NCBI GenBank assembly: GCA_047611125.1
Contig: JBLFXH010000001.1
Coordinates: forward strand, 654 to 64,653
DNA length: 64,000 nt
Origin: Rhodothermales bacterium
Lineage (GTDB): Bacteria; Bacteroidota; Rhodothermia; Rhodothermales; UBA10348
Direction: 5' to 3'
Part shown: piece after piece, positions 20,355-34,742 of the stretch
How the letters are laid out: each line of letters opens with the position of its first letter
How positions within the stretch are numbered: position 1 is the first letter of the stretch
Program-made: the position numbers and the translations under genes
Notes under the pieces: model-generated
Seen by the model: the letters and a program-made list of their open reading frames with translations, nothing else
The model's database searches: none
What the model was told of the DNA's origin: nothing

Positions 20355-21863
20355 ATGAGTCTGACAACTGCTTTTCCTCACACGTCCGTCCGCACGCTTG
20401 GAGCGCTTCGCGAGTCAGGCTACCAGATTTGTTCGGTAAAGGACGAGATCAGATCCAATCTGGTCAAGGCACTCAAGAGCGGTCGAGATCCGTTCCCCGG
20501 CGTCCTAGGGTTTGAGCAGACCGTCATTCCCCAGATCCAGAATGCGGTCCTGGGGCGACACGATTTCATCCTGCTCGGCCTTCGCGGACAGGCAAAGAGC
20601 CGGATTCTCCGCCTGCTTCCTGGACTGCTGGACGAGTATATCCCGATGGTTGCCGGCAGCGATCTGCATGACGACCCATTCCGGCCCATTACCAAGTATG
20701 CCCGGGACCTGATTGAGGAGCATGGAGATGAGACACCTATCGAGTGGCTACACCGCGATCTGAGGTACGGGGAGAAACTGGCCACGCCAGACACCTCCAT
20801 CGCAGACCTAATCGGGGACATCGACCCCATCAAGGCGGCACATCGCAAGCTGACCTACGCGGACGAGGAAGTCATTCACTTCGGCATCATTCCGCGCACG
20901 AACCGCGGGATCTTCGCCATCAACGAGCTGCCAGACCTGCAGCCCCGGATTCAGGTGGGCCTCCTCAACATCATGGAGGAGAAGGACATACAGATAAGAG
21001 GATTCAACATCCGCTTCCCGCTGGATGTGCTCATGGTGTTCTCGGCAAATCCCGAGGATTACACCAATCGGGGAAGCATTATCACCCCGCTGAAGGATCG
21101 GATCGACAGCCAGATTATCACGCACTATCCCACGTCGGTGGATACCGGAATTGCCATTACGCAGCAAGAGGCGTGGCAGCAGAGGGAGGGCGATGTCACG
21201 GTGGATGTCCCGCACTTCTTCCGGGAGATCATTGAGCAGGTGGCGTTCGAGGCCCGGGGCAGCGAGTACGTGGACCAGAACTCGGGCGTATCGGCCCGCA
21301 TGACGAGAGCCGCCCTCGAGAACCTGATATCCGCTGCGGAGCGGCGCAGCCTCCTCTGTGGAGAGTCAGAAACCACCGCGCGACCGTCAGACCTGTGGTT
21401 TGTTGAAGCCGCGATCACGGGCAAGCTTGAGTTGGTATATGAAGGTGAACAGGAAGGTGCCCAAACCGTGGCGCAGGTGCTTACCGGCCGCGCGCTAAAG
21501 ACCATATTTGCGAAGCACTTCCCGGCGCCCGAGCGCGACCGGACCACCTACCAGAAGGTGCTCGGCTGGTTTGTGGCCGGCGGTGCACTCGAGCTGCACC
21601 ACGATATGTCGTTCATCGACTATGCGAAGGCACTCGATCAGGTAGACGGCCTGCGCGAATTGGTGGATCGTGTGGCCAAGCCCGACAGTCCGGCTGTCCG
21701 TGCATCGACCATGGAGTTGGTAATCGAGGCTCTACACCAGCATTCACTGCTTGGGAAGGAGGCCGGTCCCGGCTCCAGAATCTTCGTGGACATGATGGGG
21801 TCCATGCTGTCAGGCATTGCGCCAGACGACGCTGACGAACTCGGGGATTACGAAGACCAGTGA
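20355..21863 (+). CDS. AAA+ ATPase, Mg-chelatase ChlI-like family
   Basis: Walker A-like 'LLGLRGQAKSRI', Walker B 'GIFAINELPDL', 'LLNIMEEKDIQIRG', 'MVFSANPEDYTNRGSIITPLKDR'. Confidence 0.7.
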   Translation: MSLTTAFPHTSVRTLGALRESGYQICSVKDEIRSNLVKALKSGRDPFPGVLGFEQTVIPQIQNAVLGRHDFILLGLRGQAKSRILRLLPGLLDEYIPMVAGSDLHDDPFRPITKYARDLIEEHGDETPIEWLHRDLRYGEKLATPDTSIADLIGDIDPIKAAHRKLTYADEEVIHFGIIPRTNRGIFAINELPDLQPRIQVGLLNIMEEKDIQIRGFNIRFPLDVLMVFSANPEDYTNRGSIITPLKDRIDSQIITHYPTSVDTGIAITQQEAWQQREGDVTVDVPHFFREIIEQVAFEARGSEYVDQNSGVSARMTRAALENLISAAERRSLLCGESETTARPSDLWFVEAAITGKLELVYEGEQEGAQTVAQVLTGRALKTIFAKHFPAPERDRTTYQKVLGWFVAGGALELHHDMSFIDYAKALDQVDGLRELVDRVAKPDSPAVRASTMELVIEALHQHSLLGKEAGPGSRIFVDMMGSMLSGIAPDDADELGDYEDQ

Positions 21864-23896
21864 CCGGACCGGCCTCCAGCCTCGTCTCTGGGTTGCGGCT
21901 GATCGCGGCCGTGCTTCTGCTCTTCAGCAGTGGGAGCGTCGCGGGTCAGGCGGGCCCGGGCGGAACGCCGGGTCTGCGGGTGGCGCCAACCGGTAACCAC
22001 GTTGTGGCTTGGCCCGGGAGCGACCACGCTCATCGACTCTCGATGCGGGGTGGATCCTCGGTGGCATCGGCAGACTTCGACGCCACGTACTACGGGTTGC
22101 AGCTACGCATTGAGCTGAATCCCAACAATCTGGTGGGCACCGTCCGCGTGAAAGGCGTGGCTCGAGTCGCGATGACCCAGTTAGTCCTGGATTTCGATGA
22201 TGCCATGCACGTGGAAGGCGTGCTCGCGCCGAGCGGATCAGCCTTGGCATCAACGCATAGCGACAATGCACTCACCATCGCCCTTCCCGGAGCGGTGTCG
22301 CCGGGGGAAGAGGTGGATGTCACCATCAACTACCAAGGACTGCCCCCGTCTACCGGCCTGGGCGGCTTCGTTTTCGATACGCTGGCCAGCGGAAAGCCCG
22401 CCATCTGGAGCCTGAGCGAACCGTATGCAGCCCGGACCTGGTGGCCATCGCGGGATCATCCGTCCGACAAGGCGGACTCGGTGGATGTCTCGATTGAGGT
22501 CCCCCAGCCATTGATGGCGGCCTCGAATGGACTTCTGACCCAGACGGAGACCCTAACCGGTGGATATCGGCGTTTCTCGTGGTCGCACCGCTATCCCATC
22601 GCCACGTATCTCGTCTCGGTGGCCGTTGCGGAATACGACTTCGACCAGCAGATCTACACGCGGCCAGCCGCGCTGGCACGTGATCTGGGCAGCCTGGACC
22701 TCCCCCTTGTTCACTACAGCTTTGCAGGGAACGGGGCGTTTCTGGGCAATCACCCTCAGTTCGGATTCCAATACATCACGGATATTTTCCCCGTACTCGA
22801 ACGCTGGTTCGGGCCCTATCCGTTCGATCGGGAGAAATACGGGCACGCCCAGTTCACGTTTGGGGGCGCGATGGAGCACCAGACTCTGTCCTCGATGACC
22901 ACGAATTATCAGGGGACCATGGCGCATGAGCTGGCCCACCAATGGTTTGGCGACTCGATCAGTCCGGATTCTTGGCCTCACCTCTGGCTGAACGAAGGGT
23001 TTGCCACCTTTGGGGAATTGGCCTATTGGAATGAGGCAGAGTTTCCGGGGGTCTACGACCAGATTTTTGACATCTATTACAACCGCGCCCTGACCGCCGA
23101 AGGCACCGTGGTAGTTCAGGACACCACCGATGTCCTGGACATGTTCGCTCACAGCCGGGTGTACGCGAAGGGGTGGATGGTGCTGCGCATGCTCCGCGGC
23201 ATGCTGGGCGAGGTCACCTTCCGCGAGGTCATGAGGGCCTACGCAGCAGACCCCCGCTATCAATACGGCACGGCAACGACCGATGAGTTCCAGTCTCTCG
23301 CCGAGGCCGTCTCGGGACAGGACCTAGGCTACTTCTTTGACCAATGGGTTTCGGTCGGCGATGGGTACCCCACCTACACGGCAACATGGGGGAAACGTCC
23401 CAACGGCGCGGATTGGGACGTTGAGGTCACGGTGGGACAGACCACATCGGGCTCGACCAGCCTGTTTCGGATGCCCCTGCGCATTCGGGTCGAGACCTCG
23501 GGGGCCGACCAGGACTTCGTGGTCTTCAACCAGCAGCCTCGTGAGGCGTATTTCTTGACCGTAGCCGACGAGCCGACCGGCATTGCGATAGATCCCAATC
23601 GATGGATTCTAAGGGCTCGGGATGTCCGGGTGACCTCGACTGAGGGAGGCCCGGACTTACCGGAAGCACCTGCGTTGGCGTTGTACCCTAATCCGACCAC
23701 ATCCTGGCTAAGTATCGATTCGACTTTTCCGGACCGACGGCGCGCAGAACTGGTGGACGGGCTCGGCCGAGTCGTTTCGGTTCACGGCCTGATTCCCGGT
23801 TTCAACAGACTCTCTGTCTCCAGTCTCCCAGCCGGTTTCTATGGCCTGAGGATGGGAGACGGACGAACGCACACCTTTCTCCATACGCCAGAATGA
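21860..23896 (+). CDS. M1-family zinc metallopeptidase with T9SS C-terminal sorting domain
   Basis: 'GAMEHQT', zincin 'HELAHQWFGD' plus 'WLNEGFATF'. C-terminal Por-type tail 'LYPNPTTSWLSI...LPAGFYGLRM'. GTGA overlap with the ATPase gene. Confidence 0.85.
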   Translation: MTGPASSLVSGLRLIAAVLLLFSSGSVAGQAGPGGTPGLRVAPTGNHVVAWPGSDHAHRLSMRGGSSVASADFDATYYGLQLRIELNPNNLVGTVRVKGVARVAMTQLVLDFDDAMHVEGVLAPSGSALASTHSDNALTIALPGAVSPGEEVDVTINYQGLPPSTGLGGFVFDTLASGKPAIWSLSEPYAARTWWPSRDHPSDKADSVDVSIEVPQPLMAASNGLLTQTETLTGGYRRFSWSHRYPIATYLVSVAVAEYDFDQQIYTRPAALARDLGSLDLPLVHYSFAGNGAFLGNHPQFGFQYITDIFPVLERWFGPYPFDREKYGHAQFTFGGAMEHQTLSSMTTNYQGTMAHELAHQWFGDSISPDSWPHLWLNEGFATFGELAYWNEAEFPGVYDQIFDIYYNRALTAEGTVVVQDTTDVLDMFAHSRVYAKGWMVLRMLRGMLGEVTFREVMRAYAADPRYQYGTATTDEFQSLAEAVSGQDLGYFFDQWVSVGDGYPTYTATWGKRPNGADWDVEVTVGQTTSGSTSLFRMPLRIRVETSGADQDFVVFNQQPREAYFLTVADEPTGIAIDPNRWILRARDVRVTSTEGGPDLPEAPALALYPNPTTSWLSIDSTFPDRRRAELVDGLGRVVSVHGLIPGFNRLSVSSLPAGFYGLRMGDGRTHTFLHTPE

Positions 23897-24396
23897 GCAC
23901 GCTGACCCTTCGCCGAGCCGATCCGAAAGACGCGGGCCTGCTCGTTGAAATGATTCGAGAACTGGCCGCCTACGAAAAACTGTCCGACGAGGTCGAGGCA
24001 GATGAGGGGGCATTGGCCTCACACTTGGCAAGGGATGCCTCACCGAGATGCGAGGCGGTCATTGCAGAAGGAGAAAACGGGGAGCCGCTAGGATTTGCCT
24101 TGTACTACTGGTCGTACTCCACCTTCTTGACAAGCTGGGGAATTTATCTGGAGGACCTGTTTGTCAGAGAGGCGCATCGCGGAAACGGAATCGGACTGCA
24201 GCTGCTCGGCTGGCTGGCACACGAAACCGTGGACAGAGGCGGGAGTCGCCTCACCTGGCAGGTTCTTGACTGGAATGCACCCGCCCTCGGCTTCTACGAA
24301 AAACTTGGAGCCCAAGCGCTCAGGGAATGGCAGCCCATGCGTTTGGACGGCCAGGCGCTTGAAGACCTGGCAGCCGGCTACTCGGGGACTATTTGA
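23893..24396 (+). CDS. GNAT-family N-acetyltransferase (diamine acetyltransferase-like)
   Basis: Acetyl-CoA motif 'REAHRGNGIGLQLLGWL', 'WNAPALGFYEKLGA'. ATGA overlap with the peptidase gene. Confidence 0.8.
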   Translation: MSTLTLRRADPKDAGLLVEMIRELAAYEKLSDEVEADEGALASHLARDASPRCEAVIAEGENGEPLGFALYYWSYSTFLTSWGIYLEDLFVREAHRGNGIGLQLLGWLAHETVDRGGSRLTWQVLDWNAPALGFYEKLGAQALREWQPMRLDGQALEDLAAGYSGTI

Positions 24397-24614
24397 CCTT
24401 GACAGTCCACCTTCTGGCCCGGTCCAGGCCGCGCGGTCGGAGACCCCGAAACGGGCAACGCGGGCTCACAGTCCTTGGGGACGTAGTGCGTGTGATTCCC
24501 GTGTGGGACCTCGAAGTACGGACGGTTATCGAAAATCCCCAGGGAGTCGAGTATGACGAATGCCAGAAATAGGCCCAAGACAGCGATAAGGACTTTGCGG
24601 GTTCGGATCTTCAT
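24378..24614 (-). CDS. Small membrane-anchored protein with one streptococcal-type histidine-triad (HxxHxH) motif
   Basis: Start trimmed to ATG 24614 (MKIRTRKVLIAVLGLFLAFVIL = N-terminal TM anchor). 'FEVPHGNHTHYVPKD' closely resembles the Pht/Sht repeat core 'VPHGDHYHYIPK'. Confidence 0.55.
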   Translation of the reverse strand: MKIRTRKVLIAVLGLFLAFVILDSLGIFDNRPYFEVPHGNHTHYVPKDCEPALPVSGSPTARPGPGQKVDCQGQIVPE

Positions 24615-24691
24615 GGGCCGAGGATAACAACATTGTTCAGGATCTTCCGCCAACCTGTGATTGAATTACAAGTTCGCCCCACCCTCGCTCG

Positions 24692-26977
24692 ATGATATCC
24701 CGCTCCTTCTCGCCGTTGGCCCTGGTGATGTTGTTGGCCCTGGTGGCCCTTACCCCCAGGGTCACCCTTGGACAATTGGCTAGCATTCGCGGCACGGTAA
24801 CTGAAACGCGGACAGTGGCCGCGCTGCCAGGCGCATCGGTGGTCCTCCAAGAAGTCGGGGGTGCGAGACGCGGGACCTTGACCGGAGCAGAGGGCGATTT
24901 TCTGCTGACCAGACTCCGCCCGGGCCAATACTACCTGACGGTCTCCTTCGTCGGTTTCAGCCCCCGAACAGACACGCTGGAATTGGGATTTGACGAGGTC
25001 GTGGTTTTTGACGTGGCACTGGCAGAAGTGGCGGAAGAACTGGCAGAGGTTGTAATCGAAGAGACGCGCGGTGTCGAAGGCCGGTCCACGGCCGGCCTGG
25101 AAGTAGTAAGGCCATCTTCGCTCTCGCGGGTCCCGATGCCCGATGTCTCCTATGATCTGGCGGGCTACCTGCTCACGCTGCCGGGCTTCGTTTCCACCGG
25201 GGATCGCGGCGGGCAGTTGTATGTGCGCGGAGGCACGTCCACGCAGAACCTGGTGCTGGTCGATGGCATTCCGATCTTTCAGCCGTTCCACATTATCGGA
25301 TTCTATTCGGCATTTCCGGCGGATATCATCTCCTATGCCGATGTATATGCCGGCGGCTTTGGGGCGCGGTATGGGGGGCGCATTTCGTCTGTGGTGGACG
25401 TGACCACGACCAACGGAAGCAAGGAGCGAGCACAAGGAGCGGTATCCTTTGCACCGTTCGTGAGTGGCCTGCGATTCTCCATTCCGCTGGAGGTCGGCAA
25501 GGTTTCGCTGACAGGATCGATTAGAGAGTCTGTGATCGAACACATTGCACCGGCCCTGCTGGGCCAGGAACTCCCATACCGGTTTGGAGACCGGTTCCTG
25601 AAGCTGCACGCTTTCCTGAACCAGACGTCCAGCATGTCCCTGACCGGCTTGCAGACGTTCGACCAGGGAAACCTCGGCACCACCGAGGACGAGCGCCCAT
25701 CCTCGTGGAAGAATGACGCCTTCGGTTTTCGCTACACCTTCCTTCCCGACACCGACGCCGTCCTCTCTCAGTTCGCGATGCACTACTCGAGCATGGAGAG
25801 TTCCTATCAGCCGTCCCCGACGGTCCAACAGGAAGCCGATGTCGATGCCTTCACTATGGAGATCCTGATTGCCTACCTGATGGGCAAATCCAGGGTCCAT
25901 GTGGGGCTTTTCGGCACCCTGAATCGCTTTCACTACAACCTCGGGGAGGGCTCTCGTCCTGTCAGCGCCGGCATCACGAGTGGAGGCGCCTATGTGGATA
26001 CCCAGTTCGAGATCTCGCCCTCTTTTCGCCTCGAGCCGGGTGTCCGTTATGAGGTGTTTTCGCGCGGCGTGAAAGGCAGCCTGGCACCCCGGGTTCGTGC
26101 GCTCGTGCTCCCTTTTGGTCCCGGCTCGCGGCAGCAGTGGTCGGTGGCCTGGGGCCGCTATCACCAACAGATTGTTGGATTGAACAATGAGCAGGACGTC
26201 TCCGACGTGTTCACGGTCTGGGCCCCGGCTCCGCGAAATTCGCCGGTACCCAAGGCCACTCATGTTATCCTCGGAGTCCAGCAGCGGCTCTGGCGCTGGA
26301 TGGAGTTGTCCCTGGAGGGCTACTGGAAGGACCTCGAGAATTTGGCTTTCCCGGTCTTTGACGACATACCAAACCGCGTGCTCGGTTTCTCCCGCGTCGA
26401 CGGAATCGCTCGGGGTTTCGACGTCCGTCTGGAGGTGAATCGTCAACGGTTCTATGGACAGATTGGCTATACCCTCTCCGAGGTCGAGTACCGATGGGTG
26501 GACCCCGGTCGGAGCAGCATCCAGGGCGTAGAGACGATCGGAGCCGGCGACCGCCCGGCCTTCAATCCGCCCCACGACCGTCCCCATCAGTTGAACACCA
26601 CCGTTCAGTACTCGCTCGGGCAGACAAGCCTGACGGCCAGATGGCAGTACGGGTCAGGGCTTCCGTTCACCCAGATCAGGGGGTTCCATCAGGCGCTGTC
26701 GGTCGATCCTCAGAATCCCGAGGGCTTGCTCGGCGACCCAGGCATCACCACCGTCGCTCGGGGGCCCGCCTACGGAGCCCGGCTCCCGGCGTATCACCGC
26801 TTGGATATTTCTGTGGATCACAAGTTTGTGCGGCGCCGTTCGGTGACCACCCTGCAGGCCGGTTTGATCAACGCCTATGACCGCGCGAATATCTTCCAAT
26901 ACAATTTTTTCTCGGGCGAGCGTGTGAATCAACTCCCTCTGGTGCCGTCCGTCGGCCTGTCTGTGGAAATCCGATGA
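24692..26977 (+). CDS. TonB-dependent receptor-like outer-membrane protein (CarboxypepD_reg + plug + barrel), copy 1
   Basis: Signal peptide. 'IRGTVTE...GASVVL...GDFLLTRLRPGQYYLTVSFVGF' is a carboxypeptidase-regulatory-like domain. Plug motif 'GDRGGQLYVRGGTSTQNLVLVDGIPIFQPFH'. C-terminal barrel ends 'VGLSVEIR'. Confidence 0.8.
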   Translation: MISRSFSPLALVMLLALVALTPRVTLGQLASIRGTVTETRTVAALPGASVVLQEVGGARRGTLTGAEGDFLLTRLRPGQYYLTVSFVGFSPRTDTLELGFDEVVVFDVALAEVAEELAEVVIEETRGVEGRSTAGLEVVRPSSLSRVPMPDVSYDLAGYLLTLPGFVSTGDRGGQLYVRGGTSTQNLVLVDGIPIFQPFHIIGFYSAFPADIISYADVYAGGFGARYGGRISSVVDVTTTNGSKERAQGAVSFAPFVSGLRFSIPLEVGKVSLTGSIRESVIEHIAPALLGQELPYRFGDRFLKLHAFLNQTSSMSLTGLQTFDQGNLGTTEDERPSSWKNDAFGFRYTFLPDTDAVLSQFAMHYSSMESSYQPSPTVQQEADVDAFTMEILIAYLMGKSRVHVGLFGTLNRFHYNLGEGSRPVSAGITSGGAYVDTQFEISPSFRLEPGVRYEVFSRGVKGSLAPRVRALVLPFGPGSRQQWSVAWGRYHQQIVGLNNEQDVSDVFTVWAPAPRNSPVPKATHVILGVQQRLWRWMELSLEGYWKDLENLAFPVFDDIPNRVLGFSRVDGIARGFDVRLEVNRQRFYGQIGYTLSEVEYRWVDPGRSSIQGVETIGAGDRPAFNPPHDRPHQLNTTVQYSLGQTSLTARWQYGSGLPFTQIRGFHQALSVDPQNPEGLLGDPGITTVARGPAYGARLPAYHRLDISVDHKFVRRRSVTTLQAGLINAYDRANIFQYNFFSGERVNQLPLVPSVGLSVEIR

Positions 26978-27807
26978 TGAAAGTGGCGGCCCTATCGGCG
27001 GTATTGCTTCTGGCCCTCGCCGCTTGCGACAACAGCATCCAGCCGATGGTGGAAGGAAGCGAAGGGACCCTGTTCATCTATGGGTTCCTAGACAGCGCGG
27101 CCGACAGTCAGTTCGTGCGGCTCGACGGTGTTCGGATCGCGGCGCTCGGAGACCGCCCTGATCTGAGTACAGTTCGCCTGTCGTCCACAGACGATTCAGG
27201 CGAGACGGTCGATTGGATTTACCAGGGCGCGACCTTCGAAGACGGGAGTACCGGGCACAATTTTCTCGGTCTCTTTCGGCCTGTCGAGGGCGGGCGCTAC
27301 GCCCTGCAGGCCAGGTCAACCGATGGCCGGGTAACCGAGGCCTCAACCACCATACCGGTCCGTCCCCCGATTAGTCCCGACCCCCCAAGAGGGGACACCC
27401 TCCAGATTGTCCAGAAAATCCGGCTCTCAGGCCTTGAGCGGAGCCCCTTGCGGGTGATAGTGCAGTATGAGGTCCAGGCTCCTGAGAGCCCTGAGGCGGT
27501 GAGCGTATCGGTAGACTACGGGGATAGGGGTTCGCTCTCGGCGGACGGCTGGGACTTTGACGTCTTCCTGAAGCGCGATCATCCAACGGTGATGGCCGGC
27601 ATCGCTCGCAATGTCCGGGATCGAGACGTAGCACTCCTCTCCATCGGAGTTCGTGCGGAATTGCTGAGTGCGGAATGGGACGAGCCGCATACAGCGCGTA
27701 ACATCACGGGCGGTCGCGGTTTCTTCGGCGCCGTCGGTCGCTACGACCTGGGGTGGACGCTGGAGCCGGCGGTTGTAGCCACCATCGGCTTCGTCGATGG
27801 GCAATAA
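26974..27807 (+). CDS. DUF4249-like lipoprotein, copy 1
   Basis: Lipobox 'LLLALAAC', then 'LFIYGFLDSAADSQFVRLDGVR', typical of the lipoprotein that follows this receptor class. ATGA overlap with the receptor gene. Confidence 0.6.
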   Translation: MMKVAALSAVLLLALAACDNSIQPMVEGSEGTLFIYGFLDSAADSQFVRLDGVRIAALGDRPDLSTVRLSSTDDSGETVDWIYQGATFEDGSTGHNFLGLFRPVEGGRYALQARSTDGRVTEASTTIPVRPPISPDPPRGDTLQIVQKIRLSGLERSPLRVIVQYEVQAPESPEAVSVSVDYGDRGSLSADGWDFDVFLKRDHPTVMAGIARNVRDRDVALLSIGVRAELLSAEWDEPHTARNITGGRGFFGAVGRYDLGWTLEPAVVATIGFVDGQ

Positions 27808-27916
27808 TTTGATCCGTCCATCGCCTTCCTTAGTCGGCTCGGCCCTCATGCCTTTCTCCCCGATCGTCCCAGTCGTAACATCGTCGCTCCCTGAACTGAA
27901 ACAGAACCTTGTATTG

Positions 27917-30184
27917 ATGGTGCGAATTGCAGCGTTGTTGTTTCTGAGCCTCCTCCTGTCCTCTCAAGCCGTGGCTCAGAACGCCACCATCCGAGGATTT
28001 GTGACGTCAGAGGCAGACGGACAACCACTACCAGGTGTCAACGTTATTCTGCTGGGCGTAGATGGGTCACTCGTGACCGGGACGGCTACAGATGCAGACG
28101 GCTTTTACGCACTCTCTAGAGTAACGCCGGCCACCTACACCCTGAAGGCCACGTTCATCGGATTCGAGATGCTCGAGGAGATCGTCACGCTGGCGGAGGG
28201 CATCGTAACGAGAAATATTGCGTTGGCGGAATCAGCTGCGCTGCTTGAGGGCTTATTGGTCGAGTCGGAGCGAGAAACCTCTGGTGCTGCCAACATTACC
28301 GCTGGTTTGCAGACCGTTCGCCCCGCTGATATCGACTTGGTGCCCGCTCCGGACATCTCTGCTGATCTCGTCAATTATCTGACCGCGCTTCCCGGTATCG
28401 TCTCGCAGGGAGATCGAGGTGGCCAGCTCTTTGTTCGAGGCGGAGAGCCCACCCAGAACCTGGTGCTATTGGACGGCATGATGATCTATCAGCCGTTCCA
28501 CATAGTTGGCTTCTTTTCGGCCTTCCCGTCCGAGATCATCAACACGGTCGATGTGTACGCGGGCGGCTTCGGAGGCCGGTACGGCGGGCGGCTGTCCTCG
28601 GTCATCGACGTCGCGGCCCGCACCGGTAACAAGCAGCGGTTTGCGAGCTCGGTTTCTCTGGCGCCATTCGTCAGCACGATCCGCCTCGAGGGTCCCATCG
28701 TTCCAGGGAAAGCGTCGCTGCTAATTTCAGTCCGTGAGTCGGTCATCGAGCAGGGTGCCGCCAAGATCGTGGATCAGGATCTGCCGTTCAGTTTCGGCGA
28801 TCAGTTCGCGAAACTGCACGTCAATCTAGGACAGAGCGCCCAGGCCTCCGTGACAGCCATGCACACGTCAGACCGAGGACGACTTGGTCTGGACCCCTTG
28901 GCATCGGGCGTCGAGCCGGCCCAGGAAGAGGTACACTGGGAGAATCTCGCGGTCGGCACTCGCTTCATCTTTCTGCCGGCCACCCTACCGATTTTTGCAG
29001 AGGTGCTAGTCTCGGGTTCTCAGCTGAAGAATGACTTCGGCCTCCCGGATGAGCCGGTCCGTTCAACGTTGGCGAAGCGCTTCAACTTCGCGACTAACGT
29101 GACCCACTATCTGGGCAACACAGACTTTGCCTGGGGTCTGTTTCTGTCGTCGATCTCTCTGGAGAGTGATCTCGGAGGCCAGTTTCAGAATCTCGACCTC
29201 AAGAAGGAATTTGTGACCGAGGTCGGAGCCTATATGGAGCCGGAGTTCCGGCTCGGGAACGGGCTTCGGATCCAGCCGGCAGTTCGGCTGCAGTCATTCC
29301 CGAGCAAGGGCCTGACGTTCTTCGAACCCCGAATTCGTGCGGTCTGGAACATGGGCGCGCACCGGATCAGCGCTGCAGGTGGCGTCTACCATCAGGAAAT
29401 CGTGGGATTGAATGACCGTCGCGACGCTGGCGACGTGTTTACGGCTTGGGTGGCTTCGCCCGACGGTGTGGTCCCTCAAGCCGTTCATGCGATAGCGGGG
29501 TACTCGGTTCGCCCGACCGAGTTTTTGACACTCTCGGCGGAGGTGTTCTACAAGAAACTCACCGATTTGGTAGTCCCGGAATGGACGTCCTTCCCCCGCT
29601 TTACCACCGGTATTCAGGAAGCCGACGGCGAGGCCTACGGGACTGACCTCCGCCTGGAGATCACCGCCGGCAATTCGTTCTACGGCGTGATCAGCTACGG
29701 CCTCTCCGATGTCCAGTACAACGCGGAAATTCGCGCCTTGCAGCTCCTGACCGGAGAGGACGAGATTTCCTACGCGCCGCCTCATGACAGACGGCACCAG
29801 TTGAACGCAATGACCAGCATCAGCGCGAAGGGCTTCAACCTGAACATCAGGATGCAGTTTGGCTCAGGGCTTCCGTTCAATCAGTCGCTGGGCTTTGATC
29901 GATACATCTTGTTGGACAGCCTGGTAAACGTGCTCGACAATCCGGGAGAGGAGCGGGTCCTCTACGGCCGTCCGTACAGTGGTCGCCTCCCAACCTATCA
30001 CCGATTGGATATATCGCTGGATCGCGAGTTCGAGTTTGGAAAGCGAACCGCAGCTACAATTCAACTGGGACTCATCAATGCGTATGACAGGCCCAACCTC
30101 TTCTACCTGGACCTGTTCACCCTACGCCGAGTGGATCAGTTACCGTTGATCCCTACGATTGGAATCAAAGTGGACATCAAGTGA
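27917..30184 (+). CDS. TonB-dependent receptor-like outer-membrane protein, copy 2 (paralog of 24692..26977)
   Basis: Start trimmed to ATG 27917 (MVRIAALLFLSLLLSSQAVAQ). Same domain order as copy 1. Plug 'GDRGGQLFVRGGEPTQNLVLLDGMMIYQPFH' is collinear with copy 1. Confidence 0.8.
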   Translation: MVRIAALLFLSLLLSSQAVAQNATIRGFVTSEADGQPLPGVNVILLGVDGSLVTGTATDADGFYALSRVTPATYTLKATFIGFEMLEEIVTLAEGIVTRNIALAESAALLEGLLVESERETSGAANITAGLQTVRPADIDLVPAPDISADLVNYLTALPGIVSQGDRGGQLFVRGGEPTQNLVLLDGMMIYQPFHIVGFFSAFPSEIINTVDVYAGGFGGRYGGRLSSVIDVAARTGNKQRFASSVSLAPFVSTIRLEGPIVPGKASLLISVRESVIEQGAAKIVDQDLPFSFGDQFAKLHVNLGQSAQASVTAMHTSDRGRLGLDPLASGVEPAQEEVHWENLAVGTRFIFLPATLPIFAEVLVSGSQLKNDFGLPDEPVRSTLAKRFNFATNVTHYLGNTDFAWGLFLSSISLESDLGGQFQNLDLKKEFVTEVGAYMEPEFRLGNGLRIQPAVRLQSFPSKGLTFFEPRIRAVWNMGAHRISAAGGVYHQEIVGLNDRRDAGDVFTAWVASPDGVVPQAVHAIAGYSVRPTEFLTLSAEVFYKKLTDLVVPEWTSFPRFTTGIQEADGEAYGTDLRLEITAGNSFYGVISYGLSDVQYNAEIRALQLLTGEDEISYAPPHDRRHQLNAMTSISAKGFNLNIRMQFGSGLPFNQSLGFDRYILLDSLVNVLDNPGEERVLYGRPYSGRLPTYHRLDISLDREFEFGKRTAATIQLGLINAYDRPNLFYLDLFTLRRVDQLPLIPTIGIKVDIK

Positions 30185-31083
30185 TGATGCGACGATTCGC
30201 CCTCCTGCCCGCGGTAGCCTTCGTGCTGGCCGCCATGGCCCTGTCTGCTTGCGAGACTACGGTTGACCCCTTCATTGAGGATGACCGGTTCTTTACGGTT
30301 TTCGGATACCTCGACACAGCGACCGATCTCCAGGCGGTTCGCGTGATCGCCCTCGGGCGAGTGATCGGGACCACCACCGGTGAAATAGACGCGGCGGTAT
30401 CTTCCACAGAGATCGAGACGGGGGTGGTCACCGAGTGGTATCCCGAACTGATTACGTTTGCGGACTCTAGCGTCGGCAGTGTCTACCGAGGCCCCTTCCG
30501 TCCCATTCCCGGATTCTCGTACCGATTCGATGTTGTCCGAAGTGATGGAGCCGCAGCCACGGTCACGACCACAATCCCGGTGGCAACCGACGTCCAGGTT
30601 GATGAGCCGCTGGTGTCCATCTCTGATGCCTTTCAGCGCGTGTTCTGGTCGGACATCTCGTTCAAGCCATCCCGTCTCGAGGTTTGGTACCGGTTTATGG
30701 GTGTTCGTCCGTCGGATCCGTTCCTGAACGCGGTCATTGTCTACGACAACACCCTGTACGGAGATGCGAAGGATGGTGGATGGGAGACGCTGGTTCGACT
30801 GACCGGTGACCGTCTCAGGGTTAGTCAGCAGCTGAGCGTCGCGGGCGACGCCGGTCTGACGCTGCTAGGCGTCGGCGCCAGGCTAACCATGTCCGATGAA
30901 CAATGGCGGCCTCCCGGAGGGATTTTCGATAAGGAAGTCCTGGTTCAGCCCGGCACGTTCTCGAACGTAGATGGAGGATTCGGATTTCTTGGTTCGGTGA
31001 ATCAGTTCACGGTAGAGTGGACGCTCTCGCCAGAGATCACGACGCGAATCGGGTACACGGTTCCGGGCGCGCCCGCAGACTGA
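30181..31083 (+). CDS. DUF4249-like lipoprotein, copy 2
   Basis: Lipobox 'AAMALSAC', then 'FFTVFGYLDTATDLQAVRVIALGR', parallel to copy 1. The start (GTG 30181, or ATG 30184/30187) overlaps the receptor stop. Confidence 0.6.
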   Translation: MMMRRFALLPAVAFVLAAMALSACETTVDPFIEDDRFFTVFGYLDTATDLQAVRVIALGRVIGTTTGEIDAAVSSTEIETGVVTEWYPELITFADSSVGSVYRGPFRPIPGFSYRFDVVRSDGAAATVTTTIPVATDVQVDEPLVSISDAFQRVFWSDISFKPSRLEVWYRFMGVRPSDPFLNAVIVYDNTLYGDAKDGGWETLVRLTGDRLRVSQQLSVAGDAGLTLLGVGARLTMSDEQWRPPGGIFDKEVLVQPGTFSNVDGGFGFLGSVNQFTVEWTLSPEITTRIGYTVPGAPAD

Positions 31084-32926: not shown

Positions 32927-34195
32927 CTATCGCCGAACCGCCCCGGCCGGGACGAATTCGGGGAAGGTCTGGTTCATCAGGAAATTGGCGAACGGTCGGC
33001 CCTCATCGTTGAAGCCGATGATCAGGAAATCATCGTCCCCATCCCCGTTATAGTCGCCCACGGTCAGGTCTCCTTGGGTCAGTCCGGCTAGCACGAACTC
33101 GCGCCGAAACTGGCCGGCCTCATTGATCATAACCCGTCCGGCCCTGCGTCCGAGTACGCTCTCGGCACCGGTTAGGATAATGTCCAGATTGCCGTCCACA
33201 TCGTAGTCGCTCCAGGCTACGCCTCCCCCGAGCAGGTTTGGTAGGTCTGTCTCTACCCGAACCATTCCGGCTGGCGTTGACTTGAAGAGGACGGTCAGTC
33301 CTCGAAGCAGCTGCGGATCAAGAACACCGCCGCTTATGACCAGATCGGATCGGCCGTCGTTGTCGTAGTCTCCCCAGTCCAGGTCGGCCAGGTAAAGTCC
33401 GGGCATTCCCAGATCAACCTGTTGGAAAACCTCGGGTTCTATCTGTTTGTACACCACGCTCAACGAGCCGAGGGCGGACTCGCCCGTCAGGGCAAGGTCC
33501 AAGTCTCCGTCAGCGTCCATGTCCCCCCAGTCGAGCGTGCAGAGCATGGTGCCGGGCAAGCCTGAGGATATTGGCTCGAACCGGCCGCCGGTGTTGCGGT
33601 AGATGATGGTCTTCTGATCATATGGAGGCTCCGGGTTTGCCGCTCCGCAGGCGGCGAAGTCCTGATCGCCGTCGGCATCGTAATCACCCCAAGCCACGTC
33701 TCCTGCAAACAATCCCTGGAACGACTGGGCCTGAACCAGATTCAGGCCATCATTGATGAACAACTCGCCGACCGTCTCGACGCGGGGCTCTCCTATGACC
33801 CGCTCCACGATGGTCTTGCCAAAGAGCAAAAGGTCTCCGTCCCCATCGCCGTCTGCATCTCCCCAACTGGCACTGCCGTTCCATACCTGATTCAGGATGG
33901 CGGGCACTGTTCGGTAGACCTTGAAGGAAAGGACCACCTGGAAGCCCCCGAAAGACGCCACGAACATCGAGTCCTCGAGGACCAGTACCCGCGACAGGGC
34001 ACTGCCATTGCTGAGTAGCCCTGTCAGTACTAGATCCAGATCGCCGTCCCCGTCCATGTCGCCAAAGTCAACCGACCCTTCGGTGATGTCGGGAATTGGG
34101 TAGTCAATCAACAGCGGCGCCGCGGCCGAAATTTGGGCTCTAGCCGGATTGGTCACAGAAACGAGCAAAATCGCACAGAATAGGATGGGCTTCAT
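32927..34195 (-). CDS. FG-GAP/VCBS repeat protein (secreted)
   Basis: Signal peptide 'ILFCAILLVSVTNPARAQ'. Repeated 'WGDxDxDGDLDL' calcium-binding FG-GAP units. ATG 34195 shares 1 nt with the upstream stop. Confidence 0.8.
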   Translation of the reverse strand: MKPILFCAILLVSVTNPARAQISAAAPLLIDYPIPDITEGSVDFGDMDGDGDLDLVLTGLLSNGSALSRVLVLEDSMFVASFGGFQVVLSFKVYRTVPAILNQVWNGSASWGDADGDGDGDLLLFGKTIVERVIGEPRVETVGELFINDGLNLVQAQSFQGLFAGDVAWGDYDADGDQDFAACGAANPEPPYDQKTIIYRNTGGRFEPISSGLPGTMLCTLDWGDMDADGDLDLALTGESALGSLSVVYKQIEPEVFQQVDLGMPGLYLADLDWGDYDNDGRSDLVISGGVLDPQLLRGLTVLFKSTPAGMVRVETDLPNLLGGGVAWSDYDVDGNLDIILTGAESVLGRRAGRVMINEAGQFRREFVLAGLTQGDLTVGDYNGDGDDDFLIIGFNDEGRPFANFLMNQTFPEFVPAGAVRR

Positions 34196-34740
34196 CACAG
34201 CTCGAAAAGGATCATGACAAGGCTGCCTTCCTGTATTCCGGCTGTCAGAATGTCCAGGCGTCCGTCGCCGTTGTAGTCAAACCAGATGGTAGGGCCGAAG
34301 AGAACGCCCCGAAATCGGTGTCGCAGCACGAATCCCGAGTCGATCTGCTCGTAAACGACTATCTGCCGGTTATCTGGAATCTCCAGCTTCTCGATGCCAG
34401 CCACGAGCAGGTCTAAGTCGCCATCGCCCTCGAGATCACCGCATGATACATCCCCAGAGAAGACACCAGACAGGTTCGCACCGGAGTCTACAAACCCCGT
34501 CCCATCTGACTGCAGCAGGGTGGCATGCCCCGACATCAAGTCAGGGCTCAGCACTCCGCCCGTGACGAAAAGGTCGTCGTCTCCGTCCGCGTCATAATCG
34601 GCGGCGTCAATGGCCCCGAACGAACTAAAGGGCACGCCGCGCACAACGACCTGGGCAGCAGCAGATCCCCAGGAAAACGCTAGAAACGCTAACAGCAGCG
34701 GCGCGGGTCGGGCAAACTTGGAATGCACTGGCACAGCCAA
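34195..34740 (-). CDS. Short FG-GAP/VCBS repeat protein (181 aa)
   Basis: Signal peptide 'LLLAFLAFSWGSAAAQ'. Three FG-GAP-like units ('DYDADGDDDLFV', 'GDLEGDGDLDLLV', 'DYNGDGRLDILT'). TTG start. Confidence 0.7.
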   Translation of the reverse strand: MAVPVHSKFARPAPLLLAFLAFSWGSAAAQVVVRGVPFSSFGAIDAADYDADGDDDLFVTGGVLSPDLMSGHATLLQSDGTGFVDSGANLSGVFSGDVSCGDLEGDGDLDLLVAGIEKLEIPDNRQIVVYEQIDSGFVLRHRFRGVLFGPTIWFDYNGDGRLDILTAGIQEGSLVMILFEL

Positions 34741-34742
34741 AC

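What the first reader, a model, noticed from the sequence alone, without database searches (positions are those of the whole stretch)
24378..24691. Membrane-anchored mini-protein with a pneumococcal-type histidine-triad motif, divergent from TonB-dependent receptors
The 78-aa product has an N-terminal TM anchor followed by 'FEVPHGNHTHYVPKD'. This matches more than the bare HxxHxH: it fits the extended core of the streptococcal Pht/Sht histidine-triad repeat ('VPHGDHYHYIPK'). In Firmicutes that repeat binds Zn2+ and hands it to AdcAII-type importers. Such a motif in an FCB-group diderm is unexpected, and here it sits head-to-head with a TBDR operon. It suggests a periplasmic or inner-membrane-tethered zinc (or other metal) relay coupled to outer-membrane uptake. 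The 77-bp divergent spacer contains a short inverted repeat, AACAA-CA-TTGTT (24626-24637), that could be a metalloregulator operator.
Basis: partly seen in the sequence, partly recalled or inferred. Interest (0 to 1): 0.55.

Follow-up and report, generated by a model that had tools for sequence, protein, structure and literature searches.

The report
Membrane-tethered histidine-triad mini-protein family
This is a real, strongly conserved 78-residue membrane-anchored periplasmic protein with a Pht-like three-histidine hairpin; it founds an undescribed family whose relatives sit in copper and cytochrome-maturation gene clusters, so it probably handles a metal, more likely copper than zinc.

Summary
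The gene is real. The ORF 24378-24614(-) is under strong purifying selection (dN/dS 0.055). It has about 180 distinct relatives, all from Rhodothermales, Balneolaceae or unclassified Bacteroidota.

The protein has an N-terminal membrane helix and a rigid 45-residue periplasmic module. H38, G39, H41 and H43 are essentially invariant in that module. A cysteine pair is present or absent together, which indicates a disulfide.

The match to the streptococcal Pht core is genuine but short. HHalign gives 96.6% probability over 22 columns. Pfam scores 19.9 bits against a cut-off of 27. The published structural Pht pattern matches 0 of 183 family members. So this is a new family that shares a hairpin motif, not a Pht member.

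The head-to-head link to the TonB-dependent receptor (TBDR) and DUF4249 genes holds in 36 of 43 assessable Rhodothermales species and fails in 7. In the wider family only 7 of 77 loci have a TBDR nearby.

Other relatives are translationally coupled to ccmF and tlpA. Others follow DUF411 (CopG), SCO1 or P1B-ATPase genes. In cultured Balneolaceae the module is fused to azurin inside a copper-homeostasis cluster.

The proposed operator repeat is at chance level and is broken in the closest relative.

Verdict: a probable tethered periplasmic metal-handling protein, with copper favoured over zinc. The zinc relay and the operator are not supported.

The parts
24378..24614 (-). Coding sequence of the 78-residue mini-protein, stop codon included. 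This is the founding member, in this window, of an undescribed family of membrane-anchored histidine-triad modules.
   Evidence: ORF. 25 close homologues and 79 clusters at 50% identity. dN/dS = 0.055 against L012, from 27 nucleotide and 4 amino-acid differences.
24543..24608 (-). N-terminal transmembrane helix, residues 3-24, preceded by MKIRTRK. It is read as a signal anchor with the N-terminus inside and the C-terminus outside.
   Evidence: AlphaFold2 helix at 3-24, pLDDT above 90. The positive-inside N-terminus is read directly from the sequence. The extracytoplasmic C-terminus is supported by the co-varying cysteine pair.
24477..24518 (-). Beta-hairpin, residues 33-46 (YFEVPHGNHTHYVP), carrying the histidine triad H38, H41 and H43. 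The HGNHTH codons lie at 24486-24503. This is the Pht-like core.
   Evidence: Predicted strands 33-38 and 41-46. H38 in 172/173, G39 in 173/173, H41 in 172/173 and H43 in 173/173 distinct domains. Pfam, PDB and HHalign matches are confined to this stretch.
24381..24476 (-). C-terminal half of the module, residues 47-78 (KDCEPALPVSGSPTARPGPGQKVDCQGQIVPE). It is proline-rich with two short strands. C49 (24468-24470) and C71 (24402-24404) form a probable disulfide. This part has no counterpart in Pht proteins.
   Evidence: Gap-free 45-column alignment A3. P59 in 171/173 and P63 in 173/173. C49/C71 present together in 49, absent together in 123, one alone in 1. Predicted strands 67-69 and 75-77.
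24615..24691 (.). 77-bp divergent spacer between the mini-protein gene and the first TBDR gene.
   Evidence: The equivalent regions of about 50 related loci share no motif. No sigma-70-type promoter match was found.
24626..24637 (.). Judged to be a chance feature.
   Evidence: 32% of spacer shuffles contain at least one such repeat. It is broken in the closest relative, L012, and absent in the others.
24668..24677 (-). 10-mer GCGAACTTGT, about 55-80 nt upstream of the mini-protein start (54-63 nt in the window). It is conserved only in the four closest lineages. It may be a promoter element, since GAACTT resembles an ECF-type -35 box. Function is unknown.
   Evidence: It is not enriched elsewhere in the window.
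24692..26977 (+). First TonB-dependent receptor gene (CarboxypepD_reg + Plug + barrel), divergent from the mini-protein gene.
   Evidence: Pfam. Orthologues are adjacent to the mini-protein gene in 36 of 43 assessable species.
26974..27807 (+). First DUF4249-like lipoprotein gene, the presumed surface lid of the receptor.
   Evidence: Pfam DUF4249 E=9.5e-6, 25.8 bits, just below the cut-off of 28.5. The lid role for DUF4249 was proposed in bioRxiv 10.1101/2023.03.17.533168.
27797..31083 (+). Second TBDR gene (27797-30184) and second DUF4249-like gene (30181-31083). Together they form a paralogous cassette.
   Evidence: Pfam. The number of cassettes varies between 0, 1 and 2 among related species.
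23893..24396 (+). Convergent GNAT acetyltransferase gene, overlapping the mini-protein gene by 19 bp.
   Evidence: Pfam Acetyltransf_1 E=1e-16. It is adjacent in 28 of 45 assessable species and absent in 17.

Best explanation
The ORF encodes a small bitopic inner-membrane protein. Its N-terminus is in the cytoplasm, and one helix spans the membrane. A compact domain of about 55 residues sits in the periplasm and is stabilised in this clade by a C49-C71 disulfide.

The periplasmic domain is a four-stranded mini-sheet. Its first hairpin presents H38, H41 and H43 in the same HxxHxH register as the zinc site of streptococcal Pht repeats.

I infer that the three histidines bind one transition-metal ion. 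The fourth coordination position would be left to water, to a juxtamembrane acidic residue, or to a partner protein. On this reading the protein acts as a membrane-tethered periplasmic metal-handling factor, a chaperone or buffer.

Copper is the more likely metal, because of the genes its relatives keep company with and are fused to. Zinc is the alternative, by analogy with Pht.

In Rhodothermales the gene is usually transcribed divergently from one or two cassettes of a TonB-dependent transporter plus a DUF4249 lid. It may therefore receive what those transporters bring in, but that coupling is optional and lineage-specific.

Shown: gene reality, family, topology indicators, motif similarity, and the neighbourhoods. 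Inferred: metal binding, metal identity, and any hand-off.
For: The gene is real and constrained:
- 25 close homologues plus 79 representative clusters.
- 47 species loci and 80 metagenome loci, all carrying the full module.
- dN/dS 0.055.

Fold: AlphaFold2 pLDDT is 96.2 for the full protein and 94.6 for the module alone. It predicts a hairpin at 33-46 and strands at 67-69 and 75-77.

Histidine triad: H38, G39, H41 and H43 are invariant in 172-173 of 173 distinct domains.

Periplasmic location: the cysteine pair is strictly co-occurring, and other clades have differently placed pairs.

Pht-like hairpin: HHalign 96.6% and hits to PhtD and PhtA structures. In those proteins the triad binds Zn2+ together with an Asp or Glu (PMC3842936).

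Metal context in relatives:
- ccmF-mini-tlpA with 4-nt gene overlaps.
- P1B-ATPase, methyltransferase, DUF411, mini, tlpA in one direction.
- SCO1/SenC upstream.
- An ArsP permease with a YHS domain upstream.
- A multicopper-oxidase-like gene downstream in L047.
- At least 25 protein clusters in which the anchor plus module is fused to an azurin domain, including cultured Gracilimonas, Fodinibius and Aliifodinibius.
- The Gracilimonas tropica cluster: ArsR, P1B-ATPase, CcmF-like, DUF411, fusion protein, TlpA-like, DsbD, multicopper oxidase, FUR, RND.
- DUF411 is CopG, induced by copper in the CueR regulon (PMC12341060).

TBDR link: adjacent in 36 of 43 species, and also next to the distant tandem-module relatives P0036 and P0040.
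Against: - No metal binding has been measured, and model coordinates could not be inspected for site geometry.
- No conserved fourth ligand was identified. E35 is present in only 108 of 173 domains and D29 in 83 of 173.
- A few members lack one histidine, for example KGSHAH and HGAMAH. The second module of tandem forms has none. The fold can therefore exist without the site.
- In the azurin fusions the anchor plus module occupies the place that a lipoprotein anchor has in paralogous azurins. Part of its role may be simple tethering.
- The window itself contains no copper gene, so the copper inference is transferred from relatives only 35-40% identical.
- Most loci of the wider family lie among unrelated housekeeping genes.
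- Foldseek found no structural neighbour, not even PhtA.
Confidence: 0.5

Rival explanations
1. The protein is a Pht-type zinc chaperone. It takes Zn2+ from the divergent TBDR/DUF4249 outer-membrane system and passes it to an inner-membrane importer. Both promoters are controlled by a Zur-like repressor at the AACAA-CA-TTGTT repeat.
For: The Pht-like core VPHGNHTHYVPK. Pht triads bind and transfer Zn2+ (PMC3842936). The gene is head-to-head with the TBDR in 36 of 43 species and in two distant tandem forms.
Against: - Scores fall below the Pfam and TIGRFAM cut-offs, and 0 of 183 members match the structural Pht pattern.
- No Zn solute-binding protein, ZnuABC, ZIP or Zur gene was found nearby.
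- The TBDR is absent next to the gene in 7 species and in about 90% of wider-family loci.
- The repeat is at chance level (32% of shuffles) and is broken in the closest relative. Upstream regions are unconserved.
- The informative contexts of relatives concern copper and redox functions, not zinc.
Confidence: 0.12
2. The module is mainly a structural membrane anchor, stalk, or protein-docking element. It might hold partner proteins near the inner membrane, and the conserved histidines might serve fold stability or protein contacts rather than a metal site.
For: In azurin fusions it replaces the lipoprotein anchor of paralogous azurins. The second copy in tandem forms lacks all three histidines yet keeps the rest of the module. 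The C-terminal half (FPT.PP...E.I.P.G..V) is as conserved as the triad. Many genomic contexts have no metal theme.
Against: Three histidines and the turn glycine are invariant in 172-173 of 173 sequences across about 35% overall identity, in exactly the register of a proven Zn site. That is hard to explain by fold stability alone. Stand-alone 78-residue forms have nothing to anchor.
Confidence: 0.15
3. The protein is an accessory of cytochrome c maturation or haem handling. It would be a CcmE-like tethered periplasmic carrier that ligates haem iron through histidines. This would connect TBDR-mediated haem uptake in Rhodothermales with CcmF in other lineages.
For: The gene lies directly downstream of, and is translationally coupled to, CcmF-like genes in 7 loci, with tlpA or dsbD alongside. 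No CcmE homologue was detected in those loci. Multihaem cytochromes are nearby in L111.
Against: The CcmF-like gene in Gracilimonas lies inside an obvious copper cluster with CopA-like, CopG and multicopper-oxidase genes. The fusion partner is a copper protein, not a cytochrome. Nothing indicates that the TBDR substrate is haem.
Confidence: 0.08
4. The ORF is not a gene. It would be a chance ORF in GC-rich DNA overlapping the GNAT 3' end.
For: It is short, overlaps the GNAT gene by 19 bp, has no Shine-Dalgarno sequence, and GC-rich DNA contains many spurious ORFs.
Against: dN/dS is 0.055. Full-length conservation extends down to about 35% identity in more than 120 loci, with invariant residues. 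The AlphaFold2 model has pLDDT 96. In most relatives the gene does not overlap the GNAT gene.
Confidence: 0.01

Closest known systems
Streptococcal polyhistidine-triad proteins (PhtA/B/D/E; Pfam PF04270 Strep_his_triad, TIGR01363)
   Same: They share a hairpin core of about 16-22 residues, [FY].VPHG[ND]H.HY[IV]PK.D, with HxxHxH on two adjacent strands. Profile-profile probability is 96.6%, with hits to 2cs7 and 9p1v. Both are extracytoplasmic. In Pht the triad binds Zn2+ tetrahedrally (PMC3842936).
   Different: - The upstream [DEH]-G strand that supplies the fourth (Asp/Glu) ligand is absent (0 of 183 match the pattern).
- Everything after the hairpin differs: a proline-rich FPT.PP...E.I.P.G..V tail instead of the LS.SELAAAQ.YW helix.
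- There is one module and a transmembrane anchor, instead of 4-6 repeats on a protein of about 800-1000 residues with a cleaved signal peptide.
- It occurs in Rhodothermota, Balneolota and Bacteroidota, not Firmicutes.
- There is no adjacent AdcAII/Lmb gene.
- Scores fall below both curated cut-offs.
Periplasmic copper chaperones and accessory factors of cuproprotein biogenesis (Sco1/SenC, PCuAC, CopG/DUF411, TlpA)
   Same: Relatives are encoded immediately beside these genes and are sometimes translationally coupled to them. Like Sco and TlpA, this protein is tethered to the inner membrane by one N-terminal helix and faces the periplasm. The roles of Sco and TlpA are stated from general knowledge of the families.
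   Different: There is no sequence or detectable fold relationship. The ligands would be three histidines, not the Cys/Met/His sets of Sco, PCuAC or CopG. The window itself has none of these partner genes.
AztD, ZinT and ZrgA-type periplasmic zinc chaperones of Gram-negative bacteria
   Same: The concept is the same: an auxiliary periplasmic metal-binding protein that passes metal to a transporter (PMC6689063, listed).
   Different: Those are soluble proteins of 150-400 residues with unrelated folds, encoded with ZnuABC/AztABC systems. Here the domain is tethered and has about 55 residues, and no ABC zinc importer is nearby.
CcmE (membrane-anchored periplasmic haem chaperone)
   Same: The architecture is the same: an N-terminal anchor plus a small periplasmic beta domain with a functional histidine. 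Relatives are adjacent to CcmF.
   Different: There is no sequence similarity. CcmE has an OB fold with one haem-binding histidine. The fusion partner here is a copper protein.
TBDT plus DUF4249 'lid' pairs of Bacteroidota (e.g. BT2172/BT2173)
   Same: The divergent operon in the window consists of two such pairs. The published proposal is that DUF4249 lipoproteins cap non-SusC transporters (bioRxiv 10.1101/2023.03.17.533168).
   Different: That work describes no small inner-membrane partner. The substrate is unknown for both the published pair and the window's pairs.

Membership tests
Pht / Strep_his_triad (PF04270) | Score at or above Pfam's gathering threshold (27 bits) | tested here: not met
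   19.9 bits, E=7.4e-4, residues 36-48 only.
Pht / TIGR01363 pneumococcal-type histidine triad protein | Score at or above the NCBIfam cut-off (33 bits) | tested here: not met
   14.4 bits, E=0.014.
Pht repeat | HxxHxH core followed by two hydrophobic residues on a beta-hairpin | tested here: met
   The sequence is HGNHTHYV. Predicted strands are 33-38 and 41-46. HHalign gives 96.6% probability over 22 columns.
Pht repeat | Structural pattern of Bersch et al. 2013, which includes the first strand and the fourth acidic ligand: [DEH]-G-[hyd]-x(12,16)-[hyd]-[hyd/A]-[hyd]-x-H-x2-H-x-H-[hyd]-[hyd] | tested here: not met
   The window protein does not match, and 0 of 183 family members match. Thirteen of the 14 true Pht proteins retrieved give 3-6 matches each; one divergent one (P0104) gives none (pattern from PMC3842936).
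Pht proteins | Several triad repeats per protein (the published criterion requires at least 2 hits) | tested here: not met
   There is a single module. In the tandem forms of relatives, the second copy lacks the histidines.
Pht proteins | Genetic linkage to an AdcAII/Lmb-type zinc solute-binding protein | tested here: not met
   Neighbours within about 10 kb are GNAT, M1 peptidase, AAA, TBDR, DUF4249, GT2 and BCAT genes. None of the 120+ related loci showed an SBP as a recurrent neighbour.
Pht proteins | Zn2+ binding by the triad and transfer to a partner | not testable with these tools
   This needs ITC, ICP-MS or NMR on the purified domain.
New family: membrane-anchored His-triad module (Rhodothermota/Balneolota) | N-terminal transmembrane helix followed by a gap-free 45-residue module, Y..[IV].HG.H.HYVP.D[RC]D..V....[FS]PT.PP....E.I.[PC].G..V | tested here: met
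   Alignments A1-A3. All 80 hits of the DNA pattern scan carry the whole module.
Metalloregulator (Zur/Fur-type) operator in the spacer | A palindrome that exceeds chance and is conserved in orthologous promoters | tested here: not met
   32% of shuffles reach the observed level. The repeat is broken in L012 and absent elsewhere. No regulator-specific position matrix was available, so a non-palindromic site is not excluded.
Functional TBDR partner (conserved gene neighbourhood) | Adjacency maintained across lineages beyond inherited synteny | tested here: inconclusive
   Adjacent in 36 of 43 Rhodothermales species and lost in 7. Present next to distant tandem forms with otherwise different flanks. 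Present in only 7 of 77 loci of the wider clade.

The most novel reading that the evidence does not exclude
The gene would represent an unrecognised family of inner-membrane-tethered periplasmic metallochaperones of Rhodothermota and Balneolota. The family would be built on a histidine-triad hairpin that either shares ancestry with, or converged on, the streptococcal Pht zinc site. In Balneolaceae it would load or serve cupredoxins, where it is even fused to azurin. In Rhodothermales it would be the periplasmic acceptor for metal imported by a TonB-dependent transporter with a DUF4249 lid. If so, it would give the first substrate clue, copper or zinc, for that widespread orphan transporter class.
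Probability: 0.2. Interest if true: 0.7.

Novelty: new variant of a known kind. Interest (0 to 1): 0.5.

Why it matters
Small membrane proteins are often missed or left as 'hypothetical', and this one is among the most conserved genes of its locus. If the triad binds metal, the family adds a new minimal type of periplasmic metal-handling protein in a poorly studied group of halophilic and thermophilic bacteria. It would also show that the Pht-type zinc hairpin is not confined to Firmicutes.

The azurin fusions and the copper-cluster neighbourhoods give directly testable hypotheses in cultured strains such as Gracilimonas, Fodinibius and Rhodothermus. The frequent pairing with TBDT/DUF4249 cassettes could supply a first handle on what those orphan transporters carry.

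Tried and rejected
- Foldseek against the PDB. The full model gave a best E-value of 3.2, and the module-only model gave no hit at E<=10. The domain is too small for this tool, so the result says nothing either way about a shared fold with PhtA.
I replaced it with A1 on genome contigs and a hand-made degenerate DNA pattern on metagenomes.
- A motif search in the upstream regions of about 50 loci found nothing shared beyond a 10-mer in the four closest lineages.
- The sigma-70 promoter scan found no site. It is of limited value because Bacteroidota-type promoters are not covered.
- A sequence search of the TBDR and the DUF4249-like protein against the PDB for substrate clues gave nothing informative. 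NCBIfam gave only weak BtuB-like plug matches.
- A tblastn search of the window for any copper-cluster gene of the relatives gave none.
- Literature searches for this family or for HxxHxH proteins linked to TBDRs found nothing specific.
- I rejected the 91-residue TTG start, because the extension is not conserved.
- I rejected the idea that the recurrent ABC-ATPase neighbour is ZnuC. That cluster lumps unrelated ABC ATPases, and its partner is an unannotated 553-residue membrane protein.
Full report
**Observation.** The minus-strand ORF 24378-24614 encodes the 78-residue protein MKIRTRKVLIAVLGLFLAFVILDSLGIFDNRPYFEVPHGNHTHYVPKDCEPALPVSGSPTARPGPGQKVDCQGQIVPE. It lies 77 bp from, and divergent to, a TonB-dependent receptor (TBDR) gene that starts at 24692. 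That gene heads two cassettes of a TBDR plus a DUF4249-like gene (24692-31083). The ORF overlaps the convergent GNAT gene by 19 bp. So the description is accurate.

**Is it a gene?** Yes.
- A word-indexed search found 25 homologues at 46-95% identity, all unannotated or 'hypothetical'.
- Their alignment shows VPHGxHTHYV invariant and places the start at the ATG, not at the upstream TTG.
- Against the closest relative (L012) there are 27 nucleotide but only 4 amino-acid differences, giving dN/dS 0.055.
- An exhaustive profile search of 1.84 billion representative proteins found 79 clusters.
- A scan of species-representative genomes found 47 loci, all labelled Rhodothermales, Rhodothermia, Bacteroidota or simply uncultured bacterium, apart from one 'Bacteroidales' MAG.
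- A degenerate DNA pattern for HG.H.HYVP.[DN]R[DN] found 80 metagenome loci, and every one encodes the complete module.

**Anatomy.** AlphaFold2 on a 61-sequence alignment gives a very confident model (pLDDT 96.2). It has a helix at residues 3-24, a hairpin at 33-38/41-46 with HG at the turn, and two short strands at 67-69 and 75-77. The module alone folds the same way (pLDDT 94.6).

The periplasmic part is a rigid, gap-free 45-residue module: Y..[IV].HG.H.HYVP.D[RC]D..V....[FS]PT.PP....E.I.[PC].G..V. Over 173 distinct domains, H38 is present in 172, G39 in 173, H41 in 172, H43 in 173, and P63 in 173.

C49 and C71 are both present in 49 domains, both absent in 123, and singly present in 1. That is the signature of a disulfide and therefore of an extracytoplasmic domain. 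Together with the MKIRTRK positive-inside N-terminus, it supports a topology with the N-terminus inside and the C-terminus outside.

The architecture varies among relatives:
- stand-alone anchored modules, which are the majority;
- tandem modules whose second copy lacks all three histidines;
- modules at the C-terminus of secreted proteins of 250-400 residues;
- one module inside an FG-GAP protein.

**Relation to Pht.**
- Pfam Strep_his_triad scores 19.9 bits (cut-off 27) on residues 36-48, and TIGR01363 scores 14.4 bits (cut-off 33).
- The family profile hits PhtD 9p1v and PhtA 2cs7 at E=4e-4 and 2e-3 over 16-17 residues.
- HHalign against 71 Pht repeats gives 96.6% probability over 22 columns and nothing beyond.
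- In Pht, the zinc is held by the three histidines plus an Asp or Glu about 20 residues upstream, on a three-stranded sheet. Bersch et al. encoded this as a pattern that found only Firmicutes (PMC3842936).
- That pattern matches 0 of 183 members of the present family, but matches 13 of the 14 genuine Pht proteins retrieved 3-6 times each (one divergent one, P0104, gives none).
- After the hairpin the two families are unrelated.

So the protein may work like a Pht triad but is not a Pht family member. Whether the shared hairpin reflects common descent or convergence cannot be decided. Foldseek found no neighbour for so small a domain.

**The TBDR link.** Within Rhodothermales the locus is syntenic: BCAT <- GT2 <- [DUF4249 <- TBDR] x 0-2 <- | -> mini | <- GNAT <- (M1 peptidase) <- AAA.
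- A TBDR is the divergent neighbour in 36 of 43 assessable species. It is absent in 7 (L015, L042, L047, L048, L052, L054, L055), where the mini-protein gene is nevertheless kept.
- GNAT is adjacent in 28 of 45 species.
- Two distant tandem-module relatives (P0036, P0040) are also head-to-head with orthologous TBDRs at 36-45% identity, in otherwise different flanks. Two others (P0030, P0039) are not.
- In the wider 'DRD' clade only 7 of 77 loci have a TBDR within three genes.

The association is therefore frequent and old in one lineage, but optional. It is compatible with a functional link and equally with inherited gene order. DUF4249 proteins have been proposed as surface lids of non-SusC transporters, and their substrates are unknown (bioRxiv 10.1101/2023.03.17.533168). 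Sequence searches gave no substrate clue for the window's TBDRs.

**What the relatives say about function.** Sixteen of 77 metagenome loci place the gene among periplasmic metal or thiol-redox genes.
- ccmF-mini-tlpA occurs with 4-nt overlaps, and dsbD-ccmF-DUF2085-mini also occurs.
- P1B-ATPase (with an HMA domain), methyltransferase, DUF411, mini and tlpA lie on one strand.
- SCO1/SenC lies upstream in L098, and an ArsP permease with a YHS domain lies upstream in L076, L123 and L114.
- A multicopper-oxidase-like gene lies downstream in L047.

Most tellingly, in L098 the anchor plus module is fused to a plastocyanin/azurin domain (PF00127, 39.8 bits). This fusion recurs with full-length coverage in at least 25 protein clusters, including the cultured Gracilimonas tropica, Fodinibius roseus and Aliifodinibius.

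In G. tropica the fusion gene sits in a textbook copper cluster: ArsR, P1B-ATPase, CcmF-like, SHOCT, DUF411, fusion, TlpA-like, DsbD, multicopper oxidase, Lnb, FUR, RND. DUF411 is CopG, a copper-induced member of the CueR regulon (PMC12341060).

The window's protein aligns to the module of the fusion at 39.7% identity (E=1.5e-11). However, the window has no homologue of any of these copper genes.

**Regulation.** The proposed operator does not hold. One repeat of that quality is expected in about a third of shuffled spacers. It is disrupted by three substitutions in the closest relative, and upstream regions are otherwise unalignable. No Zur, Fur or zinc importer gene is within about 10 kb. 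A 10-mer, GCGAACTTGT (24668-24677, minus strand), is conserved 55-80 nt upstream of the start in the four closest lineages only. It could be a promoter element.

**Mechanism proposed.**
- Shown: a translated, conserved, membrane-anchored protein with an extracytoplasmic disulfide-bearing mini-domain and an invariant HxxHxH hairpin that resembles a proven metal site.
- Inferred: the hairpin binds one transition-metal ion with an open or exchangeable fourth position. This suits capture and hand-off at the outer face of the inner membrane.
- Metal identity: the company kept by relatives (CopG, Sco, TlpA, DsbD, P1B-ATPase, multicopper oxidase, azurin fusion) makes copper the most likely metal. The Pht analogy makes zinc the alternative.
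- TBDR coupling: in Rhodothermales the protein may accept metal brought in by the divergent TBDT/DUF4249 system, but this step is speculative.

My rough weights are:
- about 0.5 for a periplasmic metal-handling role with copper favoured;
- 0.15 for a mainly structural or tethering role;
- 0.08 for a haem or cytochrome c maturation role;
- the remainder for something not considered.

**Novelty and verdict.** The family has no Pfam or NCBIfam model, no solved structure and no literature that I could find. It is a new variant of a known kind: a histidine-triad metal hairpin in a new, minimal, membrane-tethered scaffold, outside Firmicutes. The finding is real and moderately interesting. Its specific zinc, Pht and operator interpretation is only partly supported, and the evidence redirects it towards copper and cuproprotein biology.

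Noticed in passing
L098:1222-1980 (-); L184:9001-9759; proteins P0130-P0154: In Balneolaceae, including cultured Gracilimonas tropica, Fodinibius roseus and Aliifodinibius, the transmembrane anchor plus His-triad module is fused to an azurin/plastocyanin domain. The fusion lies in a cluster with P1B-ATPase, CcmF-like, DUF411, TlpA-like, DsbD and multicopper-oxidase genes. Databases annotate the protein simply as 'azurin'.
   Followed up: partly
L120:5544-5819 (-), L111:11468-11725 (+), L114:9583-9909 (+): Stand-alone module genes overlap their neighbours by 4 nt (ccmF-mini-tlpA; DUF2085-mini). This suggests translational coupling inside cytochrome-maturation or thiol-redox operons.
   Followed up: partly
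window 24668-24677 (- strand): The 10-mer GCGAACTTGT is conserved 55-80 nt upstream of the mini-protein start in the window, L012, L001 and L013, but in no more distant locus. GAACTT resembles an ECF-type -35 box.
   Followed up: partly
window 24692-31083; loci L012-L058: The number of TBDR plus DUF4249 cassettes between the GT2 gene and the mini-protein gene varies among Rhodothermales species (0, 1 or 2). The two cassettes in the window are diverged paralogues.
   Followed up: partly
proteins P0030, P0036, P0039, P0040: In tandem-module relatives the first copy has the histidine triad and its own cysteine pair (CPT...QCQ). The second copy has TYYVP/TYFVP (HYVP in the fragment P0078) in place of HG.H.HYVP, so it is a metal-site-less duplicate.
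   Followed up: no
proteins P0074, P0077, P0082, P0084, P0087, P0088, P0071, P0079, P0100: The same 45-residue module occurs elsewhere: at the C-terminus of otherwise unannotated secreted proteins of 250-400 residues, near the N-terminus of a 505-residue protein, inside a 518-residue protein, and inside a 912-residue FG-GAP repeat protein. The contexts and partner domains were not analysed.
   Followed up: no
window 21860-23896 (+) and 32927-36608 (-): An M1 zinc aminopeptidase and FG-GAP repeat proteins carry Por_Secre_tail (type IX secretion) sorting domains. This is consistent with a Bacteroidota-related organism. No link to the finding was established.
   Followed up: no
window 24611-26587 (-): A 658-residue ORF runs antisense to the first TBDR gene and has no support as a gene. 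It is a typical spurious long ORF of GC-rich DNA.
   Followed up: no
L130:1051-2712 (-) and 11 other metagenome loci: In 12 loci the mini-protein gene is divergent from an unannotated multi-pass membrane protein of about 520-555 residues with no Pfam hit. In at least 6 of them an ABC ATPase follows that gene. This may be an uncharacterised exporter.
   Followed up: no
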